Source of the DNA: Candidatus Saccharimonadota bacterium
Lineage (GTDB): Bacteria > Patescibacteriota > Gracilibacteria > Absconditabacterales > Absconditicoccaceae
Reading direction: 5' to 3'
DNA: 32,000 nt
Assembly: GCA_965231145.1 (NCBI GenBank)
Contig: OZ246420.1
Location: forward strand, 930,001 to 962,000
Shown piece by piece: positions 4,777 through 23,060 of the stretch; within the stretch, counting starts at the first letter, position 1, and each line of letters begins with the position of its first letter. The position numbers and the translations under genes are program-made. The notes below the pieces were generated by a model. It was not told the DNA's origin. It did no database searches and was given only the letters and a program-made list of their open reading frames with translations.

Positions 4777-4841
4777 ATTTTAGATAGTAGGTTATAGCAG
4801 CGCTGCCAACATCTATAATCTAACATCTATCTGCTATGAAT

Positions 4842-4867
4842 AAAAAAATCCGCATATGCGGATTTTT
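4842..4867. terminator. Bidirectional intrinsic terminator between convergent genes
   Basis: A7, then ATCCGCATATGCGGAT (perfect palindrome, 4848-4863), then T5. It lies 4 nt from the TAA of giant gene 1 and about 70 nt after the methyltransferase stop. Confidence 0.75.
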
Positions 4868-4870
4868 CTA

Positions 4871-5425
4871 TTATCTTGATTCCTTTTCTAGTTTCTGCGC
4901 CAGTCTGTACAGTGTTAAGAACGGTACAAATCTCTGAGCTTTCACCATTGGTTCTTTTCTGTTGATCAATCATTCTGAATACAGCTTCTCCATATGATAC
5001 TCGTAGAATGGATGTTCTTCGCTTTCTACGTTCGTCTGCTCATACTTCTTGCCATACAGCATTCTTGAAAGCACAGTCATATACTCTCCTCTTGTTAATA
5101 TGTCATTTGGTCTGCTTGTATTCATCAGTCCGAGCTGACACGCTTGGATCATATATGCTTTTAGTCCATCTGGATCTTCTCCGCTGAATACGCATTGCTT
5201 ACTTGTATCTGGCAGCTTGCCTAATATGTTCTTCGCAAACTCTCCCATGATCTTTGCAAGCTGCGCTCTCGTGATCTGATCGTAATAACGTGCTTGTAGG
5301 AATGTAGGCATCGTCGTTGACCCAATAGCACGATTGAAACAGTATGATTGTTGCTCTTCTCCCTTCAATGCTCTACACTTTGCTAATGCGAGACGCAGAA
5401 TATCTGAAGTTAAATCAGGCAATCA
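4871..5425 (-). other. C-terminal wall-anchor region of giant protein 1: three SLH-like repeats (approximate bounds)
   Basis: The translation contains ...YYDQITRAQLAKIMGEFAKNILG..., FSGEDPDGLKAYMIQACQLGLMNTSRPNDILTRGEYMTVLSRMLYG and HPFYEYHMEKLYSE-G-LINRKEPMVKAQRFVPF. These fit the S-layer-homology pattern (aromatic/acidic start, GI/GL core, xTRxE/Q helix). The Gly of the third G-L/I core is a TGA (4970-4972). Confidence 0.5.
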
Positions 5426-8400: not shown

Positions 8401-11400
8401 TAAGCGCCTGTCAACTACTAGCTGTCGCGAAAACATTTGCCGGCGCATTTGGCACCGTTGCAGGAATGACGCTATTTGATGCGCTACTTACGGTTCATGT
8501 TCACGCAGCATTGAGTGCAACTACAGAGAATGTATATGAGACGCCATTAGTAAGTCATGCGATGATAATTGGACTTCATGTTCATGTGAAACTTATGTTT
8601 CACGGTGACGATGTTGCTATGTAATAAAGAATATCTGAGCCTCATGTATACGTTGGAGCAACGAATGAAACGGTTGCCTGCCCGCTTGAGCCAGTTGCCA
8701 CTAAGCTCGTTGGTTCATTCGGTGTTCAGATTGGCGTAACATTGTTTGAAACATTACTCCACGTTCCTGTTCATGCTCCATTCACAGCTGCTGCCCTAAA
8801 AGAGTATGTCGTGCCGTTAATCAGTCATGTAATCGAGATCGGACTTCATGTTCAAGTCACCACAATACTTCATGGCGATCATGTGAGAATATAATAGAGA
8901 ATAGTTGATCATCATGTATACGTTGGTGCGATGAATGAAATGATTGCTTGTCCACTTGATCAGGTTGCGACTAGACTTGTCGGCGCATTTGCTACGGATA
9001 TTGGCGTCACACTACTTGATGGATTACTTACTGGTCCAGTTCCAATTGCATTGACCGCTGCAACTGTAAACGTATAAGACAAACCATTGATCAGACCTGA
9101 TAAAACTACCGGACTATCACTTCCCGTATATGAAATACCTCACGATGACGACGTAACAACATAATAAAGGATATCAGAACTTCCACTATATGTTGAACCA
9201 CTAAAGGACACCGTTACTTGTCAGCTGCTTGTCGCAGTTGCTACTACGTTCGTTGGTGCATTTGGAACACTCATAGGAGTAACGCTATTTGATCCACTGC
9301 TTGCCGATCCTGTTCGAACGCTATTTCTTGCGGTAACCGTAAAAGTATACGATACACCATTGGTCAATCACGTTACCGTGATTGGACTTCCAGTCCCGGT
9401 AAATGATATGTTTCCCGGATTTGATGTCGCGATATAATAGATAATTCATGTGCCACCATCATCGGCAGATCAACTAAATGAAACTGTTGCCTGACCACTT
9501 GCTGCCACCGCAGTTACATTGGTTGGCGCACTAGGAGGAAGAATTTCACTTGCAATTGGCTCCTCAAATGTGATAGACCAATTGTACAATGGTAATCCTG
9601 TACTATTTGACGCCAAAGAGACGCTCTCATCACTATCGCGGATGTTTCATCATACAGCGGTTGCAAGAGTCGAACTTCAACACGTTCCCAATCCAGCAGC
9701 CGGGCCCGTAGGACAAGACCATGCATAACGAAGCATCTGATGAGTTCCATTTGCAGCTCCACTGAGTTGGATCTGCACCTGAGTATTTCCACTCACCAAT
9801 GAAACCCCACTAATTGTGGTTGTACTACCGCCACTCTGCACAAATTCAAAACCATAGTTCGTACGTTGGGCAACATTTCATGTATCAATATTGAGTGTTC
9901 CTACTGGGATATTATAACTTACCGTAATCACGCTCCCTGACCTCACCACTGACGTAGGCATAAGAGGATTCCACGACTGTCCCTGAAATACTACTTTATT
10001 TATCACCTTTGCAAACATTTCTCCGACATGTTTGGATGACGTGCTTGTCAGACGAACTTTATCTCAAAGGTATGGATACTGATATTTTGGACCGACAAGG
10101 ATGATCTTCCCTGGGTTATTTTTATGTGCACTCAATTGTGCTACTGCTATACTACCACTCCACGTAGAATTTACCTGATTGATAAACATAGGCAATAAAA
10201 CTCCTGTGGTTCACATCAGGGCATTAATATCAAGTTGGTAATCTCTCTGCCACTCAACCAAAAATGCTTCATACCCGGCAGTAACAGATAGCGCATCACT
10301 TTCTCCATGAACAATAGTTACAGCAAGAGGTTTATAAATCCCTCCCGTTGCTTCTACTAAAGATTTTGAAATAGAGGCTTGCGCCATACCTTTTGCATAA
10401 GGAGCCGTTCCTTTCTTCAGTCAAGAATATGATGCATTTGCACCATGGAGTCCTACAACAATAGGACGGGCCAACACTCCTGTATACGCCCTAAGAGAGT
10501 TTGCGATACCTGCTGATGGCGTTTCCGCACCAGATTCTATGAGCAATCAAAGTTGATTTCACGTACCCTGTGGGTTTCCTCAACTAAGAGCGAGATTGTT
10601 ATAGGGCTGAAAAACACTAATCGCTGAGGAATTCAGTCCATAAGAGAGACTCTCTCCATTGGAAAGAATATGATAATATGTTTGGGTGTTTGTTGCTACC
10701 GCACTAGTGATAGATCCGCTTCCTACTCACTTACTATTTATAGCAGAAACCCTGAAATCATACGCTATATTATTAAAAAGTCACGTCACCGATCAGGTAA
10801 GTTCTGTACTTATACTATCTGAAAACACCGTCCAACTTGATCATGTAGAAAATTTATATTCTATCTGATAATCAAAAACCGGATCTATTGTAGAAAGTCA
10901 TGACCACGCCAAATGCACCACTCAACTTCCTACAGATGTTACGTAAAAATTTCTAGGAGCCCATGGTGTTGTTGCAGAAACACCTGGATTTCCTTCATAC
11001 ACCGATTGTATTTGCTGAGGAGTAAGAATTTGATCCCACAACTGCGCATCATCCATAAATCACGACCACATATGAGCTCCGCCGTTATATGTTCCTATAT
11101 ATGCTATCGTACTCGCGGCAGGAAGATTCGGCGCTATCCCACTTGCAACATATGCTCAGTTTTTATAAAGTGTATATTTCCTTGTTGTACCATCAAAAGT
11201 CATTGCAGCATGCACCCATGATCCGAGAGTGAGCGATACAGGATCGGTGGCCCAAGCAGTACCTCAAGCTGCTCCATGCCCTGCAATCAGCGAATTACTC
11301 ACAGAGAAAAAACTAGGATTATTCGCGTTTCCGTTAGTAATGATACTACGTGTAGCAAGAACAGTGCCTGTTGGAATAAACACCCATGCTGCCTTACTAA

Positions 11401-14400
11401 ATCCAGTAAGATTCATACTTGCTCACACACTTACAAAATTAGTCGTTCCATTGAAACGAGCTACATTACCACGAGTAGCATCATTGACTATAACCGTACC
11501 ACTATTTATACCATTATTTCGATTTGCAGAAGAGTCCAAGTAATTACCTTCGAAACGCAGAAAGAATTGAGGATGTGGCACATATACATCTATTGGAGTT
11601 ACATTTATTACACTACTTGCACTACCGGTTCCGACAGTATTGACTGCTGAAACCCTGAAATCATACACTATGTCATTGAACAATCATGTAACTACCACTC
11701 ATGTGTTTGTACTTATACCATCTGACAACACAGTCCATGTTGCTCATGTATTGAACTTATATTCAATTTGGTAATCTGTCACCGGCGAGGCAGCAACAGC
11801 CCCTGACCACGTAATTCTTACCTGCCCACTGACAGCTGCCACTCCTGTAAGGTTCGTTGGAGCAGAAGGTGCAGGAGGCGTTGCTCCATTTTCTCCTGAA
11901 TAAATAGCCGTTATCTGCGCAGGAGTAAGAGCGACATTCCACATTGCAGCATCATCAATATATCATGACCAAAAATTGAGGATTCAGAGGTAACTTCCGA
12001 TATACGTTCCTGTACTTGTTATAGGTCCATGAGGTGCTGTTCCACTTGCTGCATATACACCATTTTTATAGAGATTATATTTTCTGGTTGGATAATCAAA
12101 AGTGATAGCAACATGCACCCATGCTCCACTCGTAAATGTTGCAGAATCATTGACATACGTATTATTAGTATGTCCTCCAGCCAATGAATTATTTACCCAA
12201 AAGAAATTTGCATTAGCATTATTAATAATATTACGAGATGTAAGAGTTGTTCCTGTTGCGGCAAATACCCACGCCGCTTTCGTAAAATTTCCTCCTGACG
12301 TTAAAGGAGCTGGAACCATAACAAAATTGGTTGTTCCGTTGAAACGAGCGACCAATCAACGACCTGGATCATTTATCAATACCGTACCACCATTTACACC
12401 ATCATTTCCATTTGCAGAAGAGTCCATATAATTACCTTCAAAACGCAGGAAGAAGGCAGGTTCTGGAATTGGCGATGGCGCAAGAGTGATAGTACTACTT
12501 GCTGTTCCCGTTGCCACTGAATTAACTGCAGAGACTCTGAAATCATATGAAAGATTATTTATCAGTCACGTTATTGTTACTCATGTGTTTGTACTTATAC
12601 CATCTGACAACACAGTCCATGTTGCTCATGTATTGAACTTATATTCAATTTGGTAATCTGTCACTACAGGATCAGCAGTTACTCCTGACCAACTAAGAAC
12701 CGCCTGCCCACTTCCTCAAATGGCTCCTGTAAAATCTGTTGGAGCATTAGGAGGAGCTATATTTAATCAAAGATTACCTTCATATACTGCCTGCATCTGC
12801 CCCGATGATAACACACCTCTCCACTGCTGCATGTCATCCATATATCCCAGCCATGTACTTACACCAGGGTACCTTCATAGATTGGTACCTACCCCTCCAT
12901 CTGGCGAAGTACCAGCTACACCACTCGCTACATACGCACCATTTTTATACAGTGTATATTTTCTTGTTGCTGCATCAAACGTCTCTGCAACGTGCACCCG
13001 CTGTGCAACAGGAAAAGTAGTAGGGTCGCCAGCAGGTGAAGGTTGACCAGCATGTCCGGCGGTGAGATTTACTGTTCCATTTAGCCACAAAAACGTAGAT
13101 GCATCACCAAAAATCGCTCTAAAATAAAATGTCGGAGACAAAGATCAGAAACCCGTTGTGTATACCCAACCAGCCCTTGAAAACGATCATGTGCCTATTC
13201 CTGTACCAACACTAACAAACGATGCTGACTGAGCATTCTGCCCACCATCAAAAGAGCCGACTTGTCCACGAATCGGTTCTGTGACAACAGTCACTCCTCC
13301 ACTAACAGTACCGTGATTATTATTTGTTGTAGAGTCATTAAAGTTTCAGTTGAATCTCAGAAGAAACTGTGGCTCCGGGACTCATGCTTCAGCTGAAATA
13401 CCTGTACTTGCAAACCCGGCTCCGCTGGCATTGATTGCTGAAACTCTAAAATCGTACGACATGGGACTTATAAGCCCAGTGTTTATGACGACGCCCGTAG
13501 CTGTACTAACGCCATCATTATAAACCTGCCATGATGTTGACGAACCGGTAGTAAATTTATATTCAATCATATAGTCTGTTACGGCAGGCGTCGCTGAAAC
13601 AGGAGCCCAATTTACACGAACTCTTCCATTGGTGATAGAAACCGCTGACACATTTGTTGGTGCTGCAATAGCCCAATTTTGCGCCATCACTTCTTGTATT
13701 TCAGCTTCTGTCAAAACAGCATTCCACATCTGTACATCGTCTATCCACCCACTCCATGAAGAAGCATATGTGATAGCGCCACCTGAAACAGTATTAGTTG
13801 CAATAGCACCAACAACCTGAGCCAAACTAAAGGGATTTATTATACCGGTAGCACTGCTCACCAAGACACCACTCTGATATAGTTTATAATCCTTTGTGAC
13901 CGCATCAAACGTAACCGCCACATGCATCCATTGTCATGTAGGGAAAGCTCATGTTGAAAATACAGGATATATATTACTATTTGGTGGCGGGATATCACGA
14001 GGTCCAGCCTTGAGAGTATAAATACCGGCAGGTCCAGCGAAATTAGAATTGGCAACCGCAAACAAGTCGCTGCTATTTGCTGCATAATAAGAACCTGCAG
14101 CTAAAATGGAATAATTAGGAGCCGTAGGATTCGCTATCCCCAATTTCACCCAGGCCGCTTTTGTATAACTTCAAGAAAGCATGTTGGTAACTCTTACGAA
14201 CGCATCAGCATAGCCTGTAAGCCACAAAACCTTTCCACGAACAGAATCATTGAAAATGAGAGCTCCTGTTCCGGCTGTAGTGGTTTTATTATTTCCACCA
14301 CGATCAGTAAAATCCCCGTTGAAAGGCAGAAAATACGACGGTGCAGGAATAGCAGCATATACTTTTCCTGGTGCAATAGTTATAATTAACGCGAAAAATA

Positions 14401-14470
14401 CCTGGAAACAAAAAATCCCCAATGTTGTTCGTCTTGAAAACATAGATTTCGACTTACGGTTTAGATTCAT
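4871..14470 (-). CDS. Giant secreted cell-surface protein 1 (3,199 aa): signal peptide, 4x(LamG_3-Fn3), SGNH/SASA-like esterase, 12 tandem Fn3, stalk, 3 SLH-like repeats
   Basis: Ten track fragments lie in a single frame: 14171-14470, 13949-14149, 13382-13927, 12875-13141, 11984-12355, 11744-11944, 11423-11683, 7250-7444, 5687-5944 and 4970-5422. All offsets from 4871 are multiples of 3, and 14470-4871+1 = 9600. I hand-scanned every gap codon by codon and found only TGA, no in-frame TAA/TAG. Start is ATG 14468-14470 and stop is TAA 4871-4873. The N-terminus MNLNRKSKSMFSRRTTLGIFCFQVFFALIITIAPGKVYA/AIPAP is a Sec-type signal peptide. Domain evidence is in the sub-features below. Confidence 0.85.
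6305..9545 (-). repeat. Coding tandem array of 12 fibronectin type III domains, period about 270 bp (about 90 aa)
   Basis: Repeat starts fall near 9540, 9270, 9000, 8730, 8460, 8190, 7900, 7640, 7370, 7100, 6830 and 6560. Each unit reads like (V)PNAPTNVxAxxxSGQAxVSFxxPxxxGGSxIxYYxVTSSPGNISxTGTGSPITxTGLTNGxxYTFTVxAxNxxGTGxxS. A 13th, divergent purple-acid-phosphatase-type Fn3 follows at about 6010-6300 (WETT..IQYS..YG..THSGSISGL..TTYTYRF..FTT). Confidence 0.85.
9550..10690 (-). other. SGNH / sialate-O-acetylesterase (SASA, DUF303)-like carbohydrate esterase domain plus C-terminal beta-sandwich, embedded in giant protein 1 (approximate bounds)
   Basis: The translation reads YYHILSNGESLSYG (GDSL/GQSN-type nucleophile block), IVVGLHGANASYS, AVTIVHGESDA (QGESD-type block), LSAHKNNPGKIILVGP, DKVRLTSTSSKHVGEMFAKVI, then ...GGNIRDSDESVSLASNSTGLPLYNWSITFE. 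I recognise these motifs by eye only. No equivalent segment exists in giant protein 2. Confidence 0.45.
10700..14360 (-). repeat. Four LamG_3 (concanavalin-A-like lectin) domains alternating with four Fn3 domains, module period about 880-900 bp
   Basis: Each LamG reads FxGxxxFVxVxxxLxxxFTKAAWV...G/W-VHVAxTFDxxTxKYxLYKNGVxVASG...G-YIDDxxxWNxxLTxxQIxAxY. Each Fn3 reads APTNxxxxxxxGxVxxxWSxxxxxPVTDYQIEYKFxT..W.....STxT...ITGL....YDFRVSAVN. Segments 11697-11782 and 12579-12664 are an identical 86-nt stretch. Confidence 0.8.
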
Positions 14471-14508
14471 TCTCTATTCGATCACTAATAATGTATAATA
14501 CAAAATAA

Positions 14509-14536
14509 GTAATAAGAATCTGCTCTGCGATGTCAA
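14509..14536 (-). promoter_or_regulatory. Sigma-70-like promoter of giant gene 1
   Basis: The minus strand has TTGACA (14536-14531), a 16-nt spacer, then TATTAC (14514-14509), about 35 nt upstream of ATG 14470. The -10 context TTCTTATTACTT also appears upstream of giant gene 2. Confidence 0.4.
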
Positions 14537-14589
14537 TCAATTCATGGTAACATCAGTGTAATAAAGAGTCTTTTCTCGCAATTCATGAG

Positions 14590-14615
14590 AAAAACTCCCT
14601 CAACGGGAGTTTTTC
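14590..14615 (-). terminator. Intrinsic terminator of giant gene 2
   Basis: The minus strand reads AAAAACTCCC-gttga-GGGAGTTTTT. On the + strand this is ACTCCC 14594-14599 and GGGAGT 14605-14610. It begins 2 nt after the TAA at 14618-14620. Confidence 0.7.
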
Positions 14616-14617
14616 TG

Positions 14618-17600
14618 TTACCTACTTTCTTTCTCTAGTTTCTGTGCCAGTCTGTACAGAGTGAGGAATGGCACAAACCTTTGCGCTTTCACCATTGGTT
14701 CCTTTCTGTTGATCAATCATTCTGAATACAGCTTCTCCATATGATACTCATAGAATGGATGTTCTTCACTTTCCACATTCGTCTGCTCGTACGTTTTACC
14801 ATACAGCATTCTTGAAAGCACAGTCATATACTCTCCTCTTGTTAATATATCATTTGGTCTTGTCATATTCATCAGTCCTAACTGACATGCCTGGATCATA
14901 TATGCTGCTAGTCCGTCCGGATCTTCTCCTGTAAACGTACATTGCTTACTCTTATCTGGCAGCTTGCCCATAATATTTTTTGCAAACTCTCCCATGATCT
15001 TCGCAAGCTGCGCTCTCGTGATCTGATCGTAGTAACGTGCCTGCATGAATGTAGGCATCGTCGTTGACCCAATAGCACGATTGAAGCAGTATGATTGATG
15101 CTCTTCTCCATTTTGTGTTGTACATTTGTTCAACGCGAGGCGAAGTATACCATCTTCAAGATTCGGAAGACCTATGCTACTACATGTTCCATCATAATAA
15201 CTCAGTGAGTAATCTCCGTTTGGACACACATCCTTCGTCAGATACACTCATCCTCCTCCTCATGCAGATTGTACCGATGGAGTTGTGGCTAATGGCACTC
15301 CAAAAATCGTGAAGTTTGAAAAGTGCGTTGTGTCACATGTTACCGTCTTCGCTATCGTATCTACTGAACAATTATCCAGCTCTGACCAGCTTGTTCCATT
15401 GTGACTATAGATCTTCAACGTACTTTCATCTACTCCATCCACATCCTGATCGCGATAACTTAACGTCATCGTCAATCATGTATCAAAGTTCGTCACACGT
15501 ACTGTATCTCCACTATATGCTTGCAAGTCATACAATGCTCCTACTTGAATAAGCGATGGATTAGGCTTTCACAATTCATTTATTGCCGCATCTGCATCAA
15601 GTTGCTTTCCTTGGAAAACAACGAGTGGAATAGAACTCAGTACATCAGCAGAGATAATCATATCAAGCGTTGTTCCTATATCTGCTGTCATACTAAACAA
15701 ACCTCCTACCGGGACATCTATAATTTTTTGCTCCTGATTGACAATATTTGAGTTGTTTGCACAGCCTAATGTCGTAAAAGTTTGATTTGCTCATGTGTAG
15801 CGATTCCCGAACAGATCGGAGCCGACAAATCTATAGTTATAAGTTGTACAAGCAAATAAGTTCGCAATAAACCCACTATGAGATGTGACGCGAGTTGAAA
15901 CATCTCTCTCTATACTCTGAAGTCAATAGCCTGTTAATATACTATACTGTATCTGAGTCGACGCAGGGACTGTCGTAACCCAATTGAAGATCATATTCGT
16001 ATTTCACGTCATATTGGCCATTCAACTTGCGTACGCCGCTAGAATATTAGGCATAGCCTGTACTGATCCGCCTGGCCCTTCTCCCTGAGCATTCACTGCT
16101 GAGATAAAGAAGGTATAGAGCTCTCCATTGGTAATTCATGTAAGAGTTAAAGAGGTGGTTGCTCCTGTCTTAATAAGCATTCCTGTTATAGATCTTATTC
16201 TATAATAGTCAATAAGCAATCATCCATTATCTAATGGTGCTGCGAACGTAAAGACAACACCTCCACTTCCTACTCTCGCGACTATATCCAAAGGCTCTGA
16301 ACCTGGCGCCGTTGTTGGTGTGGTAATAGTCAACGTTACCGCGCCACTCGCGCCTTCTCACTGTGCATTTACTGCTGACACAAAGAATGTATGGGTTGTA
16401 CCATTGATAAATCATGTTACTGTCATTGGACTTGTTGATGATGAGGCGACAATCAATCATGTCATCGATCTGATTCTATATGACAATATCTCTGATCATC
16501 CACTCGTCAACGGCGCATCAAACTCAAATATCGCTTCTCCATTGGTCCCGGCTGCTTCAATGTTCTGTGGCACTCATGGCACCGTCACCGGCGTCACACT
16601 ATTTGATGGTGCACTTGAAACACCAGTTCACAATGCTGTTCTTGCCGTTACCACAAAGGCATACGACACTCAATTAGTAAGACCATCAATTAAAATAGGA
16701 CTTGATAGACCGGTAAATGCTATATCTCCCGACGTAGACGTAACTATATAATATAATATTGGCGAACCACCATCATCTGTTGAGCCAACGAATGAAACCA
16801 CGGCAGATTCATTTCAGGTAGCAGCCATAACACTTGTTGGAGCGTTTGGTATGGTAAATGGCGTCACACTATTTGAGCCAGTACTCAATGCGCCTGTTCA
16901 TGCTCAATTGACTGCGTAAACAGTGAACGTATACGACAATCCATTAGTCAATCAGGTGAGGATTATTGGGCTTCCCGTTCACGTAAATGATATATTTCCT
17001 GGAGACGAAGTAACAACATAGTAAAGTATATCTGAACCTCATGTATAGGTTGGCGCGACAAACGAGACTATTGCCTCCTGATTTCAGCCTACTGCAGAAA
17101 TACCCGTTGGCGCATTTGGTGTACTTATCGGCGTCACACTATTTGAGCCTGTACTCAATGTCCCTGTTCACGCTCCATTGATTGCGGCGATCCTAAAAAC
17201 ATAGGTTACACCATTGGTCAATCACGATACCGTGATGGGACTTCCAGTCCCGGTAAATATAATATTTCCTGTATTTGCCGTAAGCCTGTAATAGAGAATA
17301 TCTGATCAACCACTATACGTTGAGCCACTAAACGACACAACTGCTTGTCAGCTACTTACGACTGCAACAATATTTGTCGGCGCATTTGGCAATCCTGCCG
17401 GCACTATAGCATTTGACGGCCCACCAATTGAACCAAATCACACCGCATTTCTTGCCACGACAGTAAATGTATACGATACTCCATTTGTCAGACCGCTCAT
17501 GATAATAGAGGTTCCCGAACCAGCTTGCATAAAACCTCATGGCGACGACGCAGCTATATATTCTATAATACCCGTTCCCCCATTATTTGCAGGAGGATCA

Positions 17601-20600
17601 AAAGAAATTATTGCATAACCACTTCAAGGCGCAGCCGTAATATTTTGCGTGACATGTGGTACAGAGACGGGAACAACATTGTTTGAAGCTGCACTTCGCG
17701 CACCTGTTCATGCTCCATTGACCGCTGCAACACTGAAAGTATATCCACTACCATTTGTGAGTCAGTTTACGGTAATTGGACTATCAAATCATGTAAAGAT
17801 AATACTTCCTGGAGAACCAGTGAGCACATAGTAAAGTATGTCTGAACCTCATGTATAAGTTGGCGCAACAAATGAGACAAGAGCCTGCCCACTACTTACT
17901 GTCACCGCTATACTCGTCGGCGCATTTGGAGCTCAAACAGGAACCACGCTATTGGAAACACTACTTCGTTCTCATGTTCATGCGCCATTTACCGCCACTA
18001 TTCTAAATGTATATGTCGTTCCATTGGTCAATCATGTCACCGTTATCGGACTTCCATTTCACGTTAGCACTATTCCTCATGGCGCTCATGTCAGAACATA
18101 GTATGAAATATTTGAGCCTCACGTATACGTTGGTGCAGCAAACGAAATGATTGCTTGTCAGCTACTTCACGTCCCCAACAAACTTGTCGGTGCATTTGGT
18201 GTACTTATTGGTGTCACACTATTTGAGCCGCTACTTCGTTCTCATGTTCATGCGCCGTTTACTGCCGCTACTCTAAATGTATATGTCACTCCATTCGTCA
18301 GTCATGTAATTGTCATCGGATTACCATTTCAGGTCACCAGAATATTTCCTGGTGATCACGAAAACACATAATACATGATTGATGATCATCCATTATATAC
18401 TGGCGCAGTGAATGACAATATTGCTTGCCCACTCGATCCTGTTGCTACCACACTTGTTGGCGCATTTGCGATACCCATTGGAACAACGCTATTTGATCAA
18501 GTACTCGGCGTTCCGACACCGATACCATTGACTGCTGTTACCGTGAAAACATACGAAATCCCGTTAGTCAGTCATGTTATCGTGATAGGACTTCATGTTC
18601 ATGTAAATGAAATATCACCTGTGGATGACGTTACTACATAGTAGAGAATTGTCGAATTTCCGCTGTCCGTAGAACCACTAAACGAAACTATTGCTTGTCC
18701 ACTACTCGCCGTCGCCACGATATTAGTAGGAGCATTTGGAACAGTTGGGATAATCACTCATAATGCAGCTCCTTCATATAAAGCCTGGATTTGCAATGGC
18801 GTTAACACACTATCCCACATCTCTGCGTCATCTATGTATCAGCTCCAGTTAGAAGTATTGTATGCACCAACTGTCGTTCACGTACTACTCAATGGCAACT
18901 GACTAGCTATATTACCCGTCACAAACACTCCATTTTTATAAATTCTATGCATACGAGTAGCCGAGTCAAAAGTCGATGCTATATGCACCCACTGTCACAG
19001 CGGAAATGTAGCAGGATCTGTTGCGGATATTGTGATAAATCAACCCACAAAATTTCCAACAACTAATTTTCAGACAGTGGTTGCAAGATAGTCGGACAAA
19101 CTTCCGCCAAAACCGGCATTGGATATAATACCACGCAAACTAGTCATATTTGTACCTACAGGAGCATAGACCCATGCAGCCTTCGTAAAATTTGATGGTA
19201 AAGGAACAGGAACAGCTACATAACTTGTCGTTCCATTGAAACGTCACACCTGCCCACGAACTTCGTCTGTCACTATCGTCGCTCAATTGTTGATACCATG
19301 CTTATTATGACTTGTTGAATCTTGATAGTCTCACTCAAAACGCAACAGAAATAGTGGTTCAGGAACACCTATTGGATTAGTCATTCACGTAACACTGCTG
19401 GCTGCACCTGTACCTATAATATTTACGGCTGACACCCTAAAATCATAAGATAAATAGTTTGTCAGTCCCGTAATCGACACAGACAATCATGTGCTTATAC
19501 CATCAGAGAGTGTCGTCCATGTCGATCATGTGCTTATTTTATATTCTATCTGGTAATCCGTCGCTGATGGAATTGCTGCTGCTCCTGACCATGATAATAT
19601 TACCAATCAACTAGTCGCCGACGTTGTTGTCAAATTTAAAGGAGCGCTGGGGATCCCGTTTACTTGAACACCGACATTTCCTTGATATAAAGCCTGGATT
19701 TGCGATGGTGTTAACACACTATCCCACATCTCTGCGTCATCTATGTATCAGCTCCAGTTAGAACTTGCACCGTACGCACCAACTATCGTTCACGTACTAC
19801 TCAATGGCAACTGACTAGCTATATTACCCGTCACAAACACTCCATTTTTATAAATTCTATGCATACGAGTAGCCGAATCAAAGGTTGATGCTATATGCAC
19901 CCACTGTCACAGCGGAAATGTAGCAGGATCCGCTGCGGATATTCTATTTGCTCAACCTGCAGTAAAATTTCCGGCAGTTAGTTTTCAAACAAGAACGGAA
20001 AGATAGTCAGATAACATTACATTGGATATAATACCATGGAAACTACTCACATTTGTACCTACCGGAGCATAGACCCATGCAGCCTTCGTAAAATTTGATG
20101 GTAGCGGAGCAGCAACACCTACATAGCTTGTCGTTCCATTGAAACGCCCCACTTGTCCACGGTCTCCGTCTGCCACTATCGTCGCTCAGTTGTTGGTAGT
20201 AGCCTTTCATATTACATCAGAGTAGTCTCACTCAAAACGCAACAGAAAGCTCGGCATAGGGACAAAAGTAGTTCTTCAGGTAGCTACACTACTTACGCTA
20301 CCCGTCCCACTTGCATTAATCGCAGACACCCTAAAATCATATAAAAGGTCATTTATCAATCATGTGATAAATCATGTTGTATTTGCAGAAACACCATCAG
20401 AGTGTGTTGTCCATATTGATCATGTACTTATTTTATATTCTAAAGAATAGTCTGTGACTGGGAGTGTTGCAGAAACACCTGACCATGACAACAATACTAC
20501 TCCAGAAAACTGAGAAAGTGCAGTCACATTGGTTGGCGCACTTGGAAGAGAGACATCGACTCATAAATTTCCTTCATAAACCGCCAATATCTGAGTTTCA

Positions 20601-22243
20601 TTGAGAACACTATTCCACGAGGCAACATTATCCATATATCCTCACCGTGAAAAATTACCGGCATAGTATCCGATTCTCATACCGGTATTTGCAGCGGGAA
20701 GTCATGGAGATACTCAGCTTGCAACATACACACCATTTTTATAGAGAGTATATTTCTGAGAAACAGGATCAAAAGTCTCAGCAACATGTACCCACTCTCC
20801 TGTTACAAAGTTATCAGGATCTGAGGCATATGTTACTCCTACACCAGCTGGCACGTGTCATACCGATAATTTTCATGCATTCACATACATAAAATTTGAT
20901 GACGATCATCCATACGCATCGTGTCAAAATATGAAACGGAAATTGGGAGAGATACCTGTAGCAACCATAACCCAACCAGCCTTCGTAAAACCTGTTGTTC
21001 ATAAGGGAGCTGGAACAGTAATTGATACATCTGCTCCTGTAAAGTATGCAACTAGTCAACGAGTTCCATCTGTTACGATACTCACACCAGAGCTTATACC
21101 ATGAAAACCGCGAGATGAAGAATCGTTATAATTTCCTTCAAAAGGCAAGATAAATTGTGGCTCGGGAACCGCAGCCCATGCTGCTGTACCCGAAACGATA
21201 CTACTTGCAGAACTAGTTCCGCTTGCGTTGATTGCAGATACTCTAAAATCATATGTCATACCCGTAATAAGAGACGTCACACTTCATGTATATCTTGTGT
21301 TTACTCCATCTGAAAAAACATTCCAGCCTCATCCTGTAGTAAATTTATATTCAATTTGATAATCTGTCACACTTGGCGCTACCGAAACAGGCGTCCAACG
21401 AAGATTTACTCTTCCATTTGTAGTCGTGGTTACTCTTAAACCTAGAGGAGCACTTGGCAAGGAAGGCGTAATACCATCTCCATTATTTTGATTCATCACC
21501 TCGACTATCTGCAATGCAGTCAGTGCACCAGACCAGAGTTGTACATCATCCATTTGTCAGCTCCAGTTATGGGCGATGTTATTTTCATCAGCAGCAAAAG
21601 CTCCAATTACCTGTTTTGTACTGCTTGGGGCTGTCGTTGTTCCCGTAGATATACCAACCAAGACACCACTCTGGTAGAGCGAGTATTGTTTTGTCGCAGC
21701 ATCATAAGTTACCGCCACATGCGTCCATTGTCATGTGGTGAAGGTACCAGTACTTTGAACACCATTTGCTGTAGTATTATTGAGTGGTCATGCTTTCAAC
21801 GTCCAGTTAGAAACTCCTCAAAGCAGATTAGTCGCGACCCAAAAAAAGTCACTATTTCATCATAAAGTGGTTCCATTGGACAAAATACCATAGTTTTGAG
21901 TATAGTTAGCAACTCCTAATTTAACCCATGCAGATTTTGTATAACTTGGCGGAAGAGAGTTGGTCACACTTATATAAGAGATATTTGTCCCTCCAATAAG
22001 ATTTAATACTTTTCCACGTACCGGATCTGTCACAATAGACGCACCCGTACCCACCACAACAGGCTTATCATTACCCGAGTGATCGATAAAATCACCATTA
22101 AACGGAAAAAGATACATCGGTGTAGGCACCGCTGCATACACTTTTGCAGGCATAATAGTTATACCCAATGCAAAAAATATATAAAAACAAAAAATAGCCA
22201 ATATAGTCCAGCCCGAAAATGTGCGTGGGGGCTTATGATTCAT
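14618..22243 (-). CDS. Giant secreted cell-surface protein 2 (2,541 aa), tandem paralog of protein 1 without the esterase domain
   Basis: Track fragments 21860-22264, 21329-21553, 21056-21280, 19985-20176, 15260-15475 and 14717-15247 lie in one frame (offsets from 14618 are multiples of 3). I hand-scanned 15421-19990, 20161-21060, 21241-21330 and 21541-21860 and found only TGA, no in-frame TAA/TAG. ATG 22241-22243 (MNHKPPRTFSGWTILAIFCFYIFFALGITIMPAKVYA/AVPTP, aligning with the protein 1 signal peptide) is preferred over the TTG at 22264. Stop is TAA 14618-14620. Confidence 0.85.
16050..18765 (-). repeat. Coding tandem array of about 10 Fn3 domains, period about 270 bp
   Basis: The + strand landmark (c)ttgt(c/t)gg(c/t)gcatttgg recurs near 16840, 17110, 17380, 17920, 18190, 18460 and 18730. 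Minus-frame translation gives the same PNAPTN...SGQA..SF...YY..TSS.G.IS.TGTGSPIT.TGLTNG..Y.F.V.A.N..G.G units as in gene 1. Confidence 0.8.
18766..22130 (-). repeat. Four LamG_3 domains with three interleaved Fn3 domains (module period about 900-910 bp)
   Basis: Motifs match gene 1: FTKAAWVYAPVG, QWVHIASTFDSATRMHRIYKNGVFV, G-YIDDAEMWDSVLTP.QIQALY, TDYQIEYKISTG..W, YDFRVSAVN. Modules at about 18781-19330 and about 19691-20240 are near-identical at the nucleotide level. Confidence 0.8.
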
Positions 22244-22288
22244 ATCTTTTATTCTGTCTACCAAATAAACGAAAATCTACTATCTCAA

Positions 22289-22316
22289 GTAATAAGAAAA
22301 CCCATAACTATTTCAA
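22289..22316 (-). promoter_or_regulatory. Sigma-70-like promoter of giant gene 2
   Basis: The minus strand has TTGAAA (22316-22311), a 16-nt spacer, then TATTAC (22294-22289) within TTTTCTTATTACTT. This is the same architecture and -10 context as upstream of giant gene 1. Confidence 0.4.
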
Positions 22317-22353
22317 CGGTTTGTCACAAAAAAAGACATTTTTCTCAAATAAG

Positions 22354-22379
22354 AAAAACACTTCCGAAGAAGCGTTTTT
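22354..22379. terminator. Terminator-like hairpin downstream of the RRM gene
   Basis: AAAAA, ACACTTC (22358-22364), cgaa, GAAGCGT (22369-22375), TTTTT. The stem pairs 6 of 7 positions. Runs on both sides fit termination of the minus-strand RRM transcript. Confidence 0.55.
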
Positions 22380-22405
22380 CATAGACGTCTTATAGTAAGG
22401 TGAAA

Positions 22406-22738
22406 TTATGCATTCATATCATCACCATGTGAGTGACCATGATCATCAAATCTTCTTTCACCAAATGGCTTTCTTTCTCTTTCTTCGGCCATAGAAACGC
22501 TGATAAGTCTTTCTGAAGGAGCAATAGTCTTTTCATTTGACTCAGCAATTGCTTTCTGCGCATCTTCTTCAGTGACATATTCTACGAAACCGAAGCCTCT
22601 CTTTCTCCCGAACTTATCCAAAGGAAGTTTAACTGAGGCAACCTCACCAAATTGGGAAAAATATTGATGTACTTGTTCTTCGTTAAGATTCCAGTCGAGG
22701 TTTCTTACGAACAGTTTTTTTGTCTCAAGTTGTGTCAT
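22406..22738 (-). CDS. RRM-type (RNP-1/RNP-2) RNA-binding protein, 110 aa
   Basis: RNP-2 is KLFVRNL and RNP-1 is RGFGFVEY, at canonical spacing. The C-terminal tail is acidic and His-rich. No in-frame TGA. Stop is TAA 22406-22408. Confidence 0.85.
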   Translation of the reverse strand: MTQLETKKLFVRNLDWNLNEEQVHQYFSQFGEVASVKLPLDKFGRKRGFGFVEYVTEEDAQKAIAESNEKTIAPSERLISVSMAEERERKPFGERRFDDHGHSHGDDMNA

Positions 22739-22887
22739 AGTCGTAGTGATAATAACGTTTAAAGACGCCTTATCAAAAAGGCACCGCCAATATAGGGATG
22801 ACCCTACTATTTACAAGTGGAAATAGCACAGCTTGCAACACGATTATCTTTTGAAAATATTTTTTCATTTTTTTATTATTTTTTTCC

Positions 22888-23024
22888 AAAAAAAAATAGG
22901 CGCTTGCGATCAAGCACCATAGCGTTCCCGTCAAACACACATTCGGATATGAGTAGATAAAAGGCTTGGGAACAGTCGCCTATTTCTACAAAACCAACTC
23001 TACTCTTTAAAAAATTTTTTGCAA
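22888..23024 (-). ncRNA. Candidate small structured RNA or attenuator upstream of the RRM gene (promoter, about 100-nt structured body, U9 tail)
   Basis: Minus strand: TTGCAA (23024-23019), 16 nt, TAGAGT (23002-22997). The body follows as AAATAGGCG-ACT-GTTCCC...GGGAAC...GCTTGatcgCAAGC-GCCTATTT with T9. Long-range pairs are 22894-22902 with 22977-22985 and 22924-22929 with 22968-22973. The body is GC-richer than the flanking poly-A/T sequence. Confidence 0.3.
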
Positions 23025-23031
23025 AAGATAT

Positions 23032-23060
23032 AAAAAAAACGATCCGGGGTTACCGGATCG
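23032..23060 (-). terminator. Intrinsic terminator of the membrane-protein gene
   Basis: The minus strand reads CGATCCGG-taacc-CCGGATCG (8-bp stem, 23040-23047 with 23053-23060) followed by T8 (the + strand A-run 23032-23039). Confidence 0.75.

What the first reader, a model, noticed from the sequence alone, without database searches (positions are those of the whole stretch)
14618..22243. A second giant gene sits directly upstream: a head-to-tail paralog pair covering 54% of the window
Gene 2 (2,541 codons) has the same signal peptide (PAKVYAAVPTPMYLFPFNGDF versus PGKVYAAIPAPSYFLPFNGDF), the same LamG/Fn3 logic, about 10 tandem Fn3 and the same C-terminal stalk and anchor. It has its own promoter and terminator. 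The two genes are colinear and similar over the last 1.9 kb or so (4871 to about 6800 versus 14618 to about 16600). They are close to identical over the final 560 nt or so, but diverge in the N-terminal lectin half. A conserved anchor with divergent tips is what is expected of alternative or complementary adhesins, or of antigenic or host-range variation.
Basis: partly seen in the sequence, partly recalled or inferred. Interest (0 to 1): 0.8.

Follow-up and report, generated by a model that had tools for sequence, protein, structure and literature searches.

The report
Tandem giant wall-anchored lectin-stalk surface proteins
Two neighbouring giant genes, readable only if the stop codon TGA means glycine, encode long secreted surface fibres with sugar-binding-type heads and a shared cell-wall anchor; such fibres are already described in this group of tiny parasitic bacteria, so this is a well-resolved new example, not a new kind of system.

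Summary
Gene 2 (14618-22243, minus strand, 2,541 codons) is an open frame only under genetic code 25. It has 99 in-frame TGA and no TAA or TAG, and TGA aligns with glycine. Gene 2 encodes a signal peptide, 4 LamG_3 domains, 3 interspersed Fn3, 10 tandem Fn3, a Cys-rich base and a divergent triple SLH-like wall anchor.

Gene 1 (4871-14470) is its head-to-tail paralog. It is colinear over the whole length, not just 1.9 kb. It carries two extra tandem Fn3, plus a 475-aa gap in gene 2 holding a fourth LamG-linked Fn3 and a 385-aa SASA-esterase-like domain.

The anchor/tip contrast is real: about 50% amino-acid identity in the heads and 85-92% in the last 300 residues. However, the final 560 nt are 84% identical, not nearly identical. 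Synonymous divergence drops sharply at codon 2229 (0.63 to 0.23), so the conserved 3' end is a roughly 940-nt gene-conversion tract as well as a constrained one.

dN/dS stays below 0.4 throughout. I found no DGR, no cassette system and no close relatives to survey.

Best reading: paralogous host- or prey-binding surface fibres of an Absconditabacteria/Gracilibacteria-type bacterium. That makes them a new member of a known kind.

The parts
14618..22243 (-). Gene 2 coding sequence: 2,541 aa under code 25 (TGA=Gly), about 263 kDa, pI 5.0
   Evidence: It runs from ATG to TAA with 99 in-frame TGA and no TAA or TAG. TGA aligns with Gly. Prodigal on an independent Logan contig also starts at 22243.
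22133..22243 (-). Sec-type signal peptide (aa 1-37; K/R n-region, hydrophobic core WTILAIFCFYIFFALGITIM, VYA|A cleavage site)
   Evidence: This is the only strongly hydrophobic 19-mer in the protein (Kyte-Doolittle 2.4 at aa 13). The sequence is shown. SignalP was not run.
18770..22129 (-). Head region: LamG_3 x4 (aa 39-252, 359-558, 661-855, 960-1158) with Fn3 after the first three (aa 263-353, 567-656, 865-956)
   Evidence: Pfam gives Laminin_G_3 E=5e-60 with 4 stretches, and Pentaxin E=5e-13. Domain boundaries come from self-built HMMs. The LamG profile's best PDB hit is 4qvs, 'S-layer domain-containing protein' (1.5e-10), followed by pentraxins.
18776..20188 (-). Intragenic homogenised segments: LamG3 (aa 686-853; 19685-20188) and LamG4 (aa 987-1156; 18776-19285)
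   Evidence: The two segments are 81% identical in amino acids and 80-100% in nucleotides, and include a 91-nt exact repeat. The mismatch spectrum is dominated by transitions and is not A-biased.
16046..18739 (-). Stalk: 10 tandem Fn3 domains (aa 1169-2066, period 90 aa / 270 nt)
   Evidence: Pfam fn3 scores E=1e-101. HMM hits are listed. The 270-nt direct-repeat family is 60-81% identical.
15263..16015 (-). Base: Fn3-like domain (aa 2077-2143, Pur_ac_phosph_N-type) followed by a ~185-aa region with no family assignment, ending in ...THFSNFTIFG
   Evidence: Pur_ac_phosph_N is a weak hit. Homologous stretches occur in Patescibacteria proteins P0001, P0003 and P0004 at 35-40% identity. In P0001 and P0004 this region is followed by PG_binding_1 rather than SLH.
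15107..15262 (-). Gly-rich hinge (SAGGGGG) and Cys motif KDxCPNGDxSxSxYDGxC
   Evidence: The motif is conserved across homologs. All Cys outside the signal peptide lie in the C-terminal 410 residues, and all ten are shared with gene 1.
14621..15106 (-). Divergent triple SLH-like cell-wall-binding module (aa ~2380-2541; TRAQ at 2409, TRGE at 2468)
   Evidence: Pfam SLH scores E=0.0076 and 16.7 bits, below the 20.8 cut-off. Homologs P0007 and P0035 pass it. The top 8 PDB hits of the family profile are all SLH proteins. The AF2 model's top 13 Foldseek hits are all SLH domains, at probability 0.91-0.99. The motifs are located.
14618..15559 (-). 3' gene-conversion tract, gene 2 copy (partner in gene 1: 4871-5812)
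   Evidence: Fourfold-site divergence is 0.23 here against 0.63 upstream. The changepoint is at codon 2229, with likelihood ratio 61, matched by 0 of 500 permutations. Nei-Gojobori pS is 0.35-0.49 here against 0.60-0.84 upstream. Nucleotide identity is about 85% here and about 67% upstream.
14588..14616 (-). Intrinsic-terminator-like hairpin with flanking A and U tracts, directly after the gene 2 stop
   Evidence: Free energy is -20.2 kcal/mol, z -5.07, matched by 0 of 200 shuffles. The consensus scanner did not flag it.
22289..22316 (-). Promoter-like element of gene 2: TTGAAA-N16-TATTAC, containing the 12-mer TTCTTATTACTT (22287-22298)
   Evidence: The 12-mer occurs only twice in the window, once upstream of each giant gene. 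The sequence is shown. Function is inferred only; the scanner missed it because the -10 hexamer ends in C.
14509..14536 (-). Promoter-like element of gene 1: TTGACA-N16-TATTAC, containing the same 12-mer (14507-14518), within the 147-nt spacer
4871..14470 (-). Gene 1 coding sequence: 3,199-aa paralog (105 in-frame TGA). Same plan, with a 4th LamG-linked Fn3, a 385-aa insert and 12 tandem Fn3
9536..10690 (-). Gene 1-specific insert (aa 1261-1645): SASA/SGNH-esterase-like domain in which the family-invariant His is Arg (DKVRL, codon CGT)
   Evidence: There are 63 homologs, up to 55% identical over 98% of the insert. Many carry PF03629 (SASA) or PF18962 (T9SS tail). Alignment columns are shown. 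The profile hits the phage tail spike PDB 9vyh at 5e-28. The codon is given.
4839..4872 (-). Terminator-like hairpin after gene 1
   Evidence: Free energy is -17.3 kcal/mol, z -6.2.
22353..22380 (-). Terminator-like hairpin of the upstream RRM-protein gene (22406-22738, minus strand), which separates that gene from the gene 2 promoter region
   Evidence: The RRM_1 gene call appears on the Logan contig.

Best explanation
The window comes from a bacterium that reads TGA as glycine (genetic code 25). That code is used by the Absconditabacteria (SR1) and Gracilibacteria, which are small episymbiotic or predatory Patescibacteria.

Genes 2 and 1 are tandem paralogs. Each appears to have its own promoter-like element and terminator hairpin. 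Each encodes a giant secreted cell-surface fibre.

Proposed mechanism:
1. An N-terminal Sec signal peptide exports the protein and is cleaved.
2. The C-terminal divergent triple SLH-like module holds the protein non-covalently on the cell-wall polymer.
3. A Cys-rich base and a stalk of 10 (gene 2) or 12 (gene 1) Fn3 domains project the N-terminal head away from the cell. The head consists of four concanavalin-A-like LamG_3 domains spaced by Fn3. A fully extended fibre would be roughly 60 nm long; this figure is my inference from typical domain sizes.
4. The heads most likely bind glycans or proteins on the surface of a host or prey cell.
5. The two genes offer two different head sets (about 50% identity). 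Gene 1 adds a SASA-esterase-like, phage-tailspike-like domain.
6. Both use the same wall anchor. A ~940-nt gene-conversion tract at the 3' ends, together with purifying selection, keeps that anchor alike.

Shown here: the genetic code, the reading frames, the domain architecture, the paralogy, the divergence gradient and the conversion step.

Inferred: secretion, wall binding through the SLH-like module, the outward orientation and the host-binding function.
For: **Genetic code**
- Only TGA interrupts the frames.
- TGA aligns with Gly, both between the paralogs and in the RecG TRG motif.
- Several database homologs carry W where others carry G, the mark of code-4 mistranslation of code-25 genes.

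**Architecture**
- The N-terminal signal-peptide core is the only strongly hydrophobic segment (top Kyte-Doolittle 19-mer 2.4 at aa 13). Gene 2 has one other window just above 1.6 (aa 2192) and no C-terminal hydrophobic segment.

**Anchor**
- The family profile's top 8 PDB hits are all SLH S-layer proteins.
- The top 13 Foldseek hits of the AF2 model are all SLH domains.
- Homologs P0007 and P0035 exceed the Pfam SLH cut-off, and one is annotated as an SLH protein of an SR1 bacterium.
- TRAQ and TRGE motifs are present.
- The same module ends other giant code-25 ORFs of 1,577 to 2,638 aa.
- In other Patescibacteria the homologous base is followed by PG_binding_1, a different wall-binding module in the same position.

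**Heads**
- The LamG profile matches a LamG domain from an 'S-layer domain-containing protein' (PDB 4qvs) and pentraxin lectins.

**Evolution**
- The identity gradient is shown.
- dN/dS is 0.05-0.35 throughout.
- Synonymous divergence steps down at codon 2229.

**Separate transcription units**
- Hairpins and promoter-like elements support this.

**Literature**
- Giant membrane/surface proteins with fibronectin domains are proposed to attach Vampirococcus to its prey (PMC8080830).
- Absconditicoccaceae encode 8-10 SLH proteins and surface proteins over 1,500 aa with Fn3 and concanavalin A domains (PMC13059738).
Against: - No expression, localisation or binding data exist.
- The window's own SLH-like region is below the Pfam threshold (16.7 against 20.8 bits).
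- The AF2 model is of medium quality (pLDDT 68) and lacks the last 33 residues. Foldseek E-values are weak (0.1-0.5) and TM-scores are 0.41-0.46.
- Nothing in the window shows that the cell makes a pyruvylated wall polymer or an S-layer.
- LamG_3 domains also occur in enzymes and structural proteins, so 'lectin' is a fold-level inference.
- The organism could not be placed more precisely. The nearest AsnRS representative is 59% identical and unnamed.
- The middle of gene 2 (14733-20073) has no independent assembly support.
Confidence: 0.65

Rival explanations
1. The proteins are structural envelope components rather than host-binding adhesins. They would be S-layer or S-layer-associated spacer proteins that build the fibrous coat of the cell. 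The two paralogs would be alternative or co-assembling coat subunits.
For: - They have an SLH-like anchor.
- They have an acidic pI of 5.0.
- The LamG profile's best solved relative comes from an 'S-layer domain-containing protein'.
- The giant proteins of Vampirococcus are said to account for its fibrous surface.
Against: - At 263 and 331 kDa they are far larger than typical lattice-forming S-layer proteins (my own knowledge).
- Four lectin-fold domains at the distal end, and an esterase-like or tailspike-like domain in gene 1, suggest ligand recognition.
- The heads are the fastest-diverging part, which is unusual for a lattice-forming surface.
Confidence: 0.15
2. The proteins capture or process glycans for nutrition, in the way that wall-anchored polysaccharide-binding or esterase scaffolds serve SLH-anchored enzymes of Firmicutes. 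They would not be cell-cell adhesins.
For: - LamG_3 belongs to the concanavalin A-like lectin/glucanase superfamily.
- The LamG profile hits an extracellular arabinanase domain, PDB 5hon.
- Gene 1 carries a SASA-type carbohydrate-esterase-like domain.
Against: - Gene 2 has no catalytic domain at all.
- The gene 1 esterase-like domain has Arg in place of the His that the other 23 aligned family members all keep.
- Organisms using this code are described as host-dependent with minimal metabolism.
Confidence: 0.12
3. The pair is an antigenic-variation or phase-variation system. Recombination between the two genes, or within their repeats, would switch tips on a constant anchor and so generate chimeric alleles.
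For: - The genes lie in tandem, head to tail, with a shared 3' tract that has recombined at least once.
- Intragenic homogenisation of LamG3 and LamG4 shows that recombination acts within gene 2.
Against: - The conversion tract is itself old (fourfold-site divergence 0.23) and covers the anchor, not the tips.
- The heads are only ~50% identical, with saturated synonymous sites, so they offer little substrate for ongoing exchange.
- Exact repeats are at most 91 nt.
- There are no DGR signatures.
- dN/dS is below 0.4.
- Three independent runs give 100% identical sequence wherever it could be compared.
Confidence: 0.05
4. The feature is not real. It would be either a stop-riddled pseudogene or non-coding repeat region under the standard code, or an assembly artefact that placed two strain variants in tandem.
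For: - Under table 11 the region is broken about every 25 codons.
- Short-read Logan contigs break inside the genes, at 20074, 14732 and 12635.
Against: - There are 204 TGA and no TAA or TAG in 5,740 codons.
- TGA sits at Gly positions.
- Pfam domains are intact across the TGA positions.
- dN/dS is well below 1.
- Every Logan contig end lies inside an exact repeat longer than 31 nt: 20064-20103, 14703-14749 and 12579-12664.
- One Logan contig from a different run spans the gene 2-gene 1 junction at 100% identity.
- The two genes are only 63% identical and differ in domain content, which is too much for strain alleles.
Confidence: 0.03

Closest known systems
Giant cell-surface proteins of Absconditicoccaceae (Vampirococcus lugosii, PMC8080830; Strigamonas methylophilicida, PMC13059738; Absconditicoccus praedator as cited there)
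   Same: - They come from the same code-25 lineage type.
- The proteins are over 1,500 aa, carry a signal peptide or membrane segment, and contain adhesion-type domains including fibronectin type III and concanavalin A.
- Those genomes also hold multiple SLH-domain proteins.
- Their proposed role is recognition of and attachment to the host or prey.
   Different: - Sequence homology to those particular proteins was not tested here.
- The head region has no close homolog in 5.8 billion proteins.
- The tandem paralog arrangement, the 4x(LamG_3-Fn3) head and the 3' conversion tract do not appear in the passages of those papers that I read.
SLH-anchored surface proteins of Firmicutes (B. anthracis Sap, PDB 3pyw/6bt4; P. 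alvei SpaA, PDB 6cwc; G. stearothermophilus SbsB, PDB 4aq1; C-terminally SLH-anchored proteins of Clostridium thermocellum, from my own knowledge)
   Same: - A three-repeat helical module of about 160 aa with TRAE-type motifs.
- These are the best sequence-profile and fold matches.
- The module gives non-covalent attachment of a large extracellular protein to the wall.
   Different: - The module here is very divergent: 16-18% identity, and below the Pfam cut-off in this protein.
- It is preceded by a lineage-specific CPNGD...YDGxC cysteine motif.
- The wall ligand in Patescibacteria is unknown.
Repeat-stalk giant adhesins of other bacteria (SiiE, LapA and MpIBP exported by type I secretion; LPXTG-anchored Ebh and SasG 'periscope' proteins; from my own knowledge)
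   Same: The working principle is shared: an anchor, a long stalk of tandem Ig/Fn3-like domains, and distal ligand-binding domains.
   Different: - Secretion and anchoring differ. Here there is an N-terminal Sec signal and a C-terminal SLH-like module.
- There are no RTX repeats and no membrane tail, and gene 2 has no LPXTG-type motif.
- The stalk repeats are only 60-81% identical at the DNA level, so they are not length-variable periscope repeats.
Phage tail spike protein PDB 9vyh and SASA (PF03629) sialate-O-acetylesterase-like proteins (relevant to the gene 1 insert only)
   Same: - The insert family profile matches the tail spike C-terminal 430 residues at E=5e-28.
- Many homologs carry PF03629.
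- The GxS and HGExD motifs are conserved.
   Different: - The gene 1 copy has GES instead of GQS.
- It has Arg where all 23 aligned relatives have His in the D-x-x-H motif, so it may bind rather than cleave.
- Gene 2 lacks the domain altogether.

Membership tests
Genetic code 25 (TGA = Gly; SR1/Absconditabacteria and Gracilibacteria) | TGA occurs in frame inside genes, while TAA and TAG remain stops | tested here: met
   There are 99 and 105 in-frame TGA and no TAA or TAG in the two giant genes. Nine of the 13 flanking ORFs checked also contain TGA, and the 12 complete ones all end in TAA or TAG.
Genetic code 25 (TGA = Gly; SR1/Absconditabacteria and Gracilibacteria) | TGA positions correspond to glycine, not tryptophan (code 4) | tested here: met
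   Between the paralogs TGA aligns with Gly 70 times and with Trp 0 times. In RecG 'RGT@EIL@VRQSG' both TGA fall on TRG-motif glycines.
Genetic code 25 (TGA = Gly; SR1/Absconditabacteria and Gracilibacteria) | A tRNA-Gly with anticodon UCA is present and release factor 2 is absent | not testable with these tools
   No tRNA gene lies in the window. The rest of the genome is not available.
Fibronectin type III (PF00041) | Score above the Pfam gathering threshold | tested here: met
   333.7 bits against a cut-off of 25, with 12 stretches. Self-built HMMs resolve 13 units.
Laminin_G_3 / concanavalin A-like lectin-glucanase (PF13385) | Score above the Pfam gathering threshold | tested here: met
   202.5 bits against a cut-off of 27.6, with 4 stretches.
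Laminin_G_3 / concanavalin A-like lectin-glucanase (PF13385) | Actual carbohydrate or other ligand binding | not testable with these tools
   Only fold-level similarity to pentraxins and to a LamG domain of an S-layer protein is available.
SLH (S-layer homology, PF00395) wall anchor | Score above the Pfam gathering threshold | tested here: not met
   The window's own sequence scores 16.7 bits against a cut-off of 20.8 (E=0.0076). Homologs of the same module pass: P0007 scores 22.9 and P0035 scores 22.5.
SLH (S-layer homology, PF00395) wall anchor | Three tandem ~55-aa helical repeats forming the SLH fold | tested here: inconclusive
   - The top 8 profile-to-PDB hits are all SLH proteins, but the best E-value is 0.007.
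- The AF2 model (pLDDT 68, truncated at a TGA) has SLH domains as its top 13 Foldseek hits, with probability 0.91-0.99, TM-score 0.41-0.46 and E-value 0.1-0.5.
SLH (S-layer homology, PF00395) wall anchor | TRAE-type motif in the repeats | tested here: met
   TRAQ is at aa 2409 and TRGE at aa 2468. The family consensus is LTRA and VTRAE.
SLH (S-layer homology, PF00395) wall anchor | Binding to a pyruvylated secondary cell-wall polymer, with csaB present in the genome | not testable with these tools
   The window holds no such gene, and no biochemistry is available.
LPXTG sortase-anchored adhesins | C-terminal LPXTG motif, hydrophobic segment and basic tail | tested here: not met
   Gene 2 has no LPXTG-type motif and no C-terminal hydrophobic segment.
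Type I-secreted RTX giant adhesins (LapA, SiiE, MpIBP) | RTX or Ca-binding repeats, a C-terminal secretion signal and no N-terminal Sec signal | tested here: not met
   Pfam finds no RTX or cadherin-like families, and an N-terminal signal peptide is present.
Periscope-type length-variable repeat proteins | Tandem repeats that are near-identical at the DNA level | tested here: not met
   The Fn3 units are 60-81% identical in nucleotides. The longest exact repeat in the array is 46 nt.
Diversity-generating retroelement target protein | A reverse transcriptase nearby and a template/variable repeat pair differing at adenines | tested here: not met
   No reverse-transcriptase-like ORF was recognised in the window's translations, though they were not scanned against Pfam. 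The mismatches between LamG3 and LamG4 are mostly transitions, and only 11 of 62 fall where the LamG3 copy has A.
Giant surface proteins of Absconditicoccaceae | Over 1,500 aa, a signal peptide or TM segment, and adhesion-type domains (Fn3, ConA-like) | tested here: met
   Searches show these features. The criteria are as described in PMC8080830 and PMC13059738.
Giant surface proteins of Absconditicoccaceae | The source organism belongs to that family | tested here: inconclusive
   - Relatives of the C-terminal module are named SR1, Absconditabacterales, Absconditicoccaceae and 'Peribacteria'.
- The nearest AsnRS representative is 59% identical and unnamed.

The most novel reading that the evidence does not exclude
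The pair is a two-member host-range module of an uncultured code-25 episymbiont or predator. Two receptor-binding fibres would share one wall anchor. Recurrent 3' gene conversion would keep that anchor interchangeable, while the lectin heads diverge freely.

Gene 1 would have gained a phage-tailspike-like SASA esterase domain, which sits next to a fourth LamG-linked Fn3 that gene 2 also lacks. The closest relatives of the esterase-like domain include free-standing proteins with T9SS sorting tails, which I read as Bacteroidota-type. Its catalytic His has become Arg, which would turn an enzyme that destroys a receptor into a module that binds it.

On this reading the bacterium recognises its host's surface glycans with the same kind of tool that phages use.
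Probability: 0.2. Interest if true: 0.6.

Novelty: new member of a known kind. Interest (0 to 1): 0.35.

Why it matters
How Absconditabacteria and Gracilibacteria recognise and hold their host cells is still largely inferred from gene lists.

This pair supplies two concrete, fully resolved candidate attachment fibres, each with a defined head, stalk and anchor. It also gives a testable prediction: SLH-like wall binding at the C-terminus and glycan binding at the LamG heads.

The pair documents gene conversion confined to the anchor. That explains 'conserved anchor, divergent tip' patterns without invoking selection alone.

There is also a practical lesson. Under the standard code these genes vanish into fragments of 20-180 codons. 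Surveys that do not apply code 25 will therefore miss the largest surface proteins of these organisms.

Tried and rejected
**Searches and look-ups that gave little**
- **Close relatives, for copy number and chimeric alleles.**
  - GTDB representative genomes gave at best 35% identity over a full-length match to the C-terminal module (3 loci).
  - JGI metagenomes gave 1 locus at 35%.
  - The word-indexed protein search with the C-terminus gave at best 40%.
  - The same search with the head matched only single Fn3 domains.
- **Exact-protein look-ups of code-11 fragments from the middle and 3' part of gene 2.** Nothing was on record. The same was true of one gene 1 fragment. So 14733-20073 lacks independent assembly support.
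- **Structure prediction with the code-25 translation.** I used the 176-aa TGA-free stretch instead, which cuts off the last 33 residues.
- **Consensus promoter and terminator scan.** It found nothing at the gene 2-gene 1 spacer and only weak sites upstream of gene 2. The elements reported here come from folding and motif search.
- **tRNA scan and Rfam scan of the window.** Both found nothing.
- **Taxonomic placement through AsnRS.** The best representatives are unnamed metagenome proteins.
- **Literature search for the run accessions.** It returned nothing relevant.

**Ideas rejected**
- TGA = Trp (code 4) is ruled out.
- A DGR target is ruled out.
- Sortase or membrane anchoring is ruled out.
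- Recent duplication with near-identical 3' ends is ruled out.

Full report
**1. Is the gene there?**

Under the bacterial code (table 11) it is not. The longest ORF in the whole window is 370 aa. Translating 14618-22243 on the minus strand gives 99 internal stops, and translating 4871-14470 gives 105.

Every one of these stops is TGA. Neither frame contains a TAA or TAG before its terminal TAA, over 2,542 and 3,200 codons.

When the two translations are aligned, TGA faces Gly 70 times, TGA 37 times and Trp never.

The flanking RecG gene gives independent support. Its sequence reads 'RGT@EIL@VRQSG' (@ = TGA), and both TGA fall where the conserved TRG motif of RecG has glycine. The motif is my own knowledge; the codons are.

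Nine of the 13 flanking ORFs I checked also contain in-frame TGA, and the 12 complete ones all end in TAA or TAG.

The window therefore uses genetic code 25 (TGA = Gly). That code is used by Absconditabacteria (SR1) and Gracilibacteria.

**2. Anatomy of gene 2 (263 kDa, pI 5.0)**

- **Signal peptide.** Residues 1-37 have a basic n-region, the only strongly hydrophobic segment of the protein, and a VYA|A site.
- **Head.** There are four Laminin_G_3 domains (aa 39-252, 359-558, 661-855, 960-1158). The first three are each followed by an Fn3 (Pfam E=5e-60 and 1e-101; boundaries).
- **Stalk.** Ten Fn3 domains lie in perfect tandem (aa 1169-2066, period 90 aa).
- **Base.** An Fn3-like domain (Pur_ac_phosph_N type) is followed by a ~185-aa region with no family assignment, a Gly-rich hinge and a cysteine motif, KDVCPNGDYSLSYYDGTC.
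- **C-terminal module.** The last ~160 residues form the module discussed in section 3.
- **Cysteines.** Apart from one in the signal peptide, all cysteines lie in the last 410 residues. All ten are conserved in gene 1.

**3. The C-terminal 'anchor'**

There is no C-terminal hydrophobic segment, and gene 2 has no LPXTG-type motif (gene 1's one loose match, LPDTS at aa 3086, lies inside this module). Several lines point to a divergent SLH triplet:

- Pfam gives a sub-threshold SLH hit (16.7 bits against a 20.8 cut-off).
- A protein search with the last 478 residues found 40 relatives. None is closer than 40% identity. They include proteins named 'S-layer homology domain-containing protein [candidate division SR1 bacterium]' and proteins from Absconditicoccaceae and Absconditabacterales.
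- The module is mobile. It ends proteins with beta-helix or LRR heads, or it follows the signal peptide of ~400-aa proteins.
- Two homologs pass the Pfam SLH threshold.
- A 16-sequence profile of the module returns only SLH S-layer proteins as its eight best PDB hits: Sap, SpaA and SbsB, with a best E-value of 0.007.
The model has pLDDT 68. Its top 13 Foldseek hits are all SLH domains, with probability 0.91-0.99 and TM-score 0.41-0.46.
- TRAQ and TRGE motifs sit where SLH repeats carry TRAE.

I therefore call it a divergent SLH-like wall-binding triplet. Formal Pfam membership is not met for this sequence, and ligand binding is untested.

Two further observations fit an anchoring role. The same module terminates other giant code-25 ORFs of at least 2,268, 1,577, 1,821 and 2,638 aa, whose heads are unrelated. 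In other Patescibacteria, proteins homologous to the base region end instead in a PG_binding_1 domain.

**4. The paralog pair**

Gene 1 (3,199 aa) has the same plan. The two proteins align end to end, at 63% identity over 2,501 positions.

Four large gaps in gene 2 account for the length difference:
- two adjacent gaps of 259 and 216 aa, which together hold a fourth LamG-linked Fn3 and a 385-aa insert;
- two single extra Fn3 units of about 90 aa each.

Amino-acid identity by region is:
- about 50% in the heads;
- 60-70% in the Fn3 array;
- about 70% in the base;
- 85-92% in the last 300 residues.

Nucleotide identity is about 85% for the last 960 nt, then drops to about 67%. It falls to random immediately beyond the stop codons. 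The last 560 nt are 83.6% identical, so 'close to identical' is an overstatement.

**5. Why the 3' end is conserved**

Nei-Gojobori analysis under code 25 gives dN/dS of 0.05-0.35 in every interpretable window. Synonymous differences are saturated (pS 0.60-0.84) everywhere except the last three 100-codon windows (pS 0.35-0.49).

At fourfold-degenerate sites, divergence is 0.63 over codons 1-2228 and 0.23 over the last 313. The maximum-likelihood changepoint is at codon 2229, which is window ~15559 in gene 2 and ~5812 in gene 1. The likelihood ratio is 61, and none of 500 permutations reached it.

A step in silent-site divergence cannot come from protein-level constraint. The last ~940 nt of the two genes share a much more recent ancestor than the rest, which means gene conversion or an equivalent recombination. 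The tract is still old, so this is not ongoing rapid homogenisation.

Recombination also acts within gene 2. LamG3 and LamG4 are 81% identical in amino acids and 80-100% in nucleotides over ~500 nt, including a 91-nt exact match. By contrast they are 48-52% identical to any gene 1 LamG. The mismatch spectrum there is ordinary and shows no adenine bias, so a DGR is unlikely.

**6. Transcription units**

Each gene is followed by a strong A-tract/hairpin/U-tract structure:
- gene 2: 14588-14616, -20.2 kcal/mol, z -5.1;
- gene 1: 4839-4872, z -6.2.

The upstream RRM-protein gene (22406-22738) has its own hairpin at 22353-22380.

Both giant genes are preceded by TTGA(A/C)A-N16-TATTAC. This lies within the 12-mer TTCTTATTACTT, which occurs only twice in the window, 37-55 nt before each ATG.

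They are sequence inference only, and the consensus scanner did not flag them.

**7. Is it an assembly artefact?**

Independent Logan assemblies of three runs are 100% identical to the window over 20074-32000 (ERR4405440), 22444-28306 (ERR4405441) and 12635-14732 (ERR4405439). The last of these spans the gene 2 stop, the spacer and the gene 1 start.

All three contig ends that fall inside the giant genes lie within exact repeats of 40, 47 and 86 nt. That is expected for a short-k assembler and does not contradict the window.

No exact repeat exceeds 91 nt, and the Fn3 units are only 60-81% identical. Collapse is therefore unlikely.

The stretch 14733-20073 could not be checked independently.

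**8. Function**

The evidence fits a secreted fibre. The SLH-like module would hold it on the wall, and an Fn3 stalk would present four ConA-like domains. The LamG profile's nearest solved relatives are a LamG domain from an 'S-layer domain-containing protein' (4qvs, 1.5e-10) and pentraxin lectins.

The literature on cultured or well-resolved relatives describes this class of protein:
[quoted passage not shown] They carry fibronectin and other adhesion domains and are proposed to mediate prey attachment (PMC8080830).
- Strigamonas encodes 8-10 SLH proteins. It also has surface proteins over 1,500 aa with fibronectin type III and concanavalin A domains (PMC13059738).

The pair is therefore a new member of a known kind. 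The rivals cannot be excluded without experiments but fit less well. They are a structural coat protein, a glycan-harvesting scaffold and a variation system. Pseudogene and artefact readings are effectively excluded.

**9. Gene 1's extra domain (outside the given coordinates)**

The 385-aa insert has 63 homologs, up to 55% identical over 98% of its length. They are mostly free-standing 400-600-aa proteins. Many carry PF03629 (SASA esterase) or a T9SS sorting tail.

The family profile matches a phage tail spike (PDB 9vyh) at 5e-28.

In the alignment, the D-x-x-H histidine is kept by the other 23 aligned sequences but is Arg (CGT) in gene 1. The GQS motif is GES in gene 1. This suggests an esterase fold converted to a binding module, and it is the most interesting lead in the locus.

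**10. Verdict**

The anchor/tip contrast is real and an adhesin-like role is plausible. However, the anchor is SLH-like, its conservation is partly due to a conversion tract, and nothing supports antigenic variation.

Interest is moderate to low for a specialist (0.35).

Noticed in passing
window 9536-10690 (gene 1, minus strand, aa 1261-1645): Gene 1 carries a SASA/SGNH-esterase-like domain that gene 2 lacks.
- Homologs are up to 55% identical, and many carry a T9SS tail or PF03629.
- The family profile hits the phage tail spike PDB 9vyh at 5e-28.
- The family-invariant His of the D-x-x-H motif is Arg (CGT) in gene 1, and GQS is GES.
- The domain may be an inactivated esterase now used for binding, possibly acquired horizontally.
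   Followed up: partly
window 18776-19285 and 19685-20188 (gene 2, LamG4 and LamG3): Intragenic homogenisation: the two LamG domains are 80-100% identical in nucleotides over ~500 nt and include a 91-nt exact repeat. All other LamG pairs are 35-59% identical in amino acids. In gene 1 as well, LamG3 and LamG4 are each other's closest relatives (59%), which suggests concerted evolution within each gene.
   Followed up: yes
window 14507-14518 and 22287-22298 (minus strand): The 12-mer TTCTTATTACTT occurs only twice in 32 kb, each time 37-55 nt upstream of a giant-gene ATG and 16 nt after a TTGACA or TTGAAA. This may be a conserved promoter, or a promoter plus operator, shared by the pair.
   Followed up: partly
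whole window; genes at 268-2478, 23999-25285, 4871-22243: TGA supplies 29-32% of glycine codons in the giant genes and 23% in RecG, but only 1 of 29 in AsnRS. Use of the reassigned codon is very uneven between genes.
   Followed up: no
window 22406-22738 (minus strand): A 110-aa RRM_1 RNA-binding protein gene lies directly upstream of gene 2 on the same strand, with its own terminator hairpin at 22353-22380. My greedy code-25 ORF list had wrongly preferred an overlapping plus-strand ORF here.
   Followed up: partly
window 6935-8704, 10361-12304, 16757-18067 (plus strand): Under code 25, long antisense ORFs of 590, 648 and 437 codons lie opposite the giant genes. They are probably a by-product of the biased codon content of the repeats rather than genes.
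   Followed up: no
proteins P0008, P0010, P0018, P0027 and others: Many database homologs of the SLH-like module carry W where close relatives carry G (for example KWDLSPS against KGDLSAS, and RWYVMLM against RGYVMLM). These appear to be code-25 genes translated with code 4 in public collections.
   Followed up: no
L002 5924-10657 and L003 4982-10447 (MAGs labelled 'Candidatus Peribacteria'): Giant ORFs of 1,577 and 1,821 aa that end in the same module contain 46 and 32 in-frame TGA. These genomes therefore also read TGA as sense, whatever their label implies.
   Followed up: no
window 12635, 14732, 20074: The ends of the independent Logan contigs fall exactly inside exact repeats of 86, 47 and 40 nt that are shared within or between the giant genes. 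Public short-k assemblies fragment this locus systematically.
   Followed up: yes
window 23999-25285 (AsnRS): The nearest of 1.84 billion representative proteins is only 59% identical, the next are 47-48%, and none carries an organism name. The source organism appears to be a poorly sampled lineage.
   Followed up: partly
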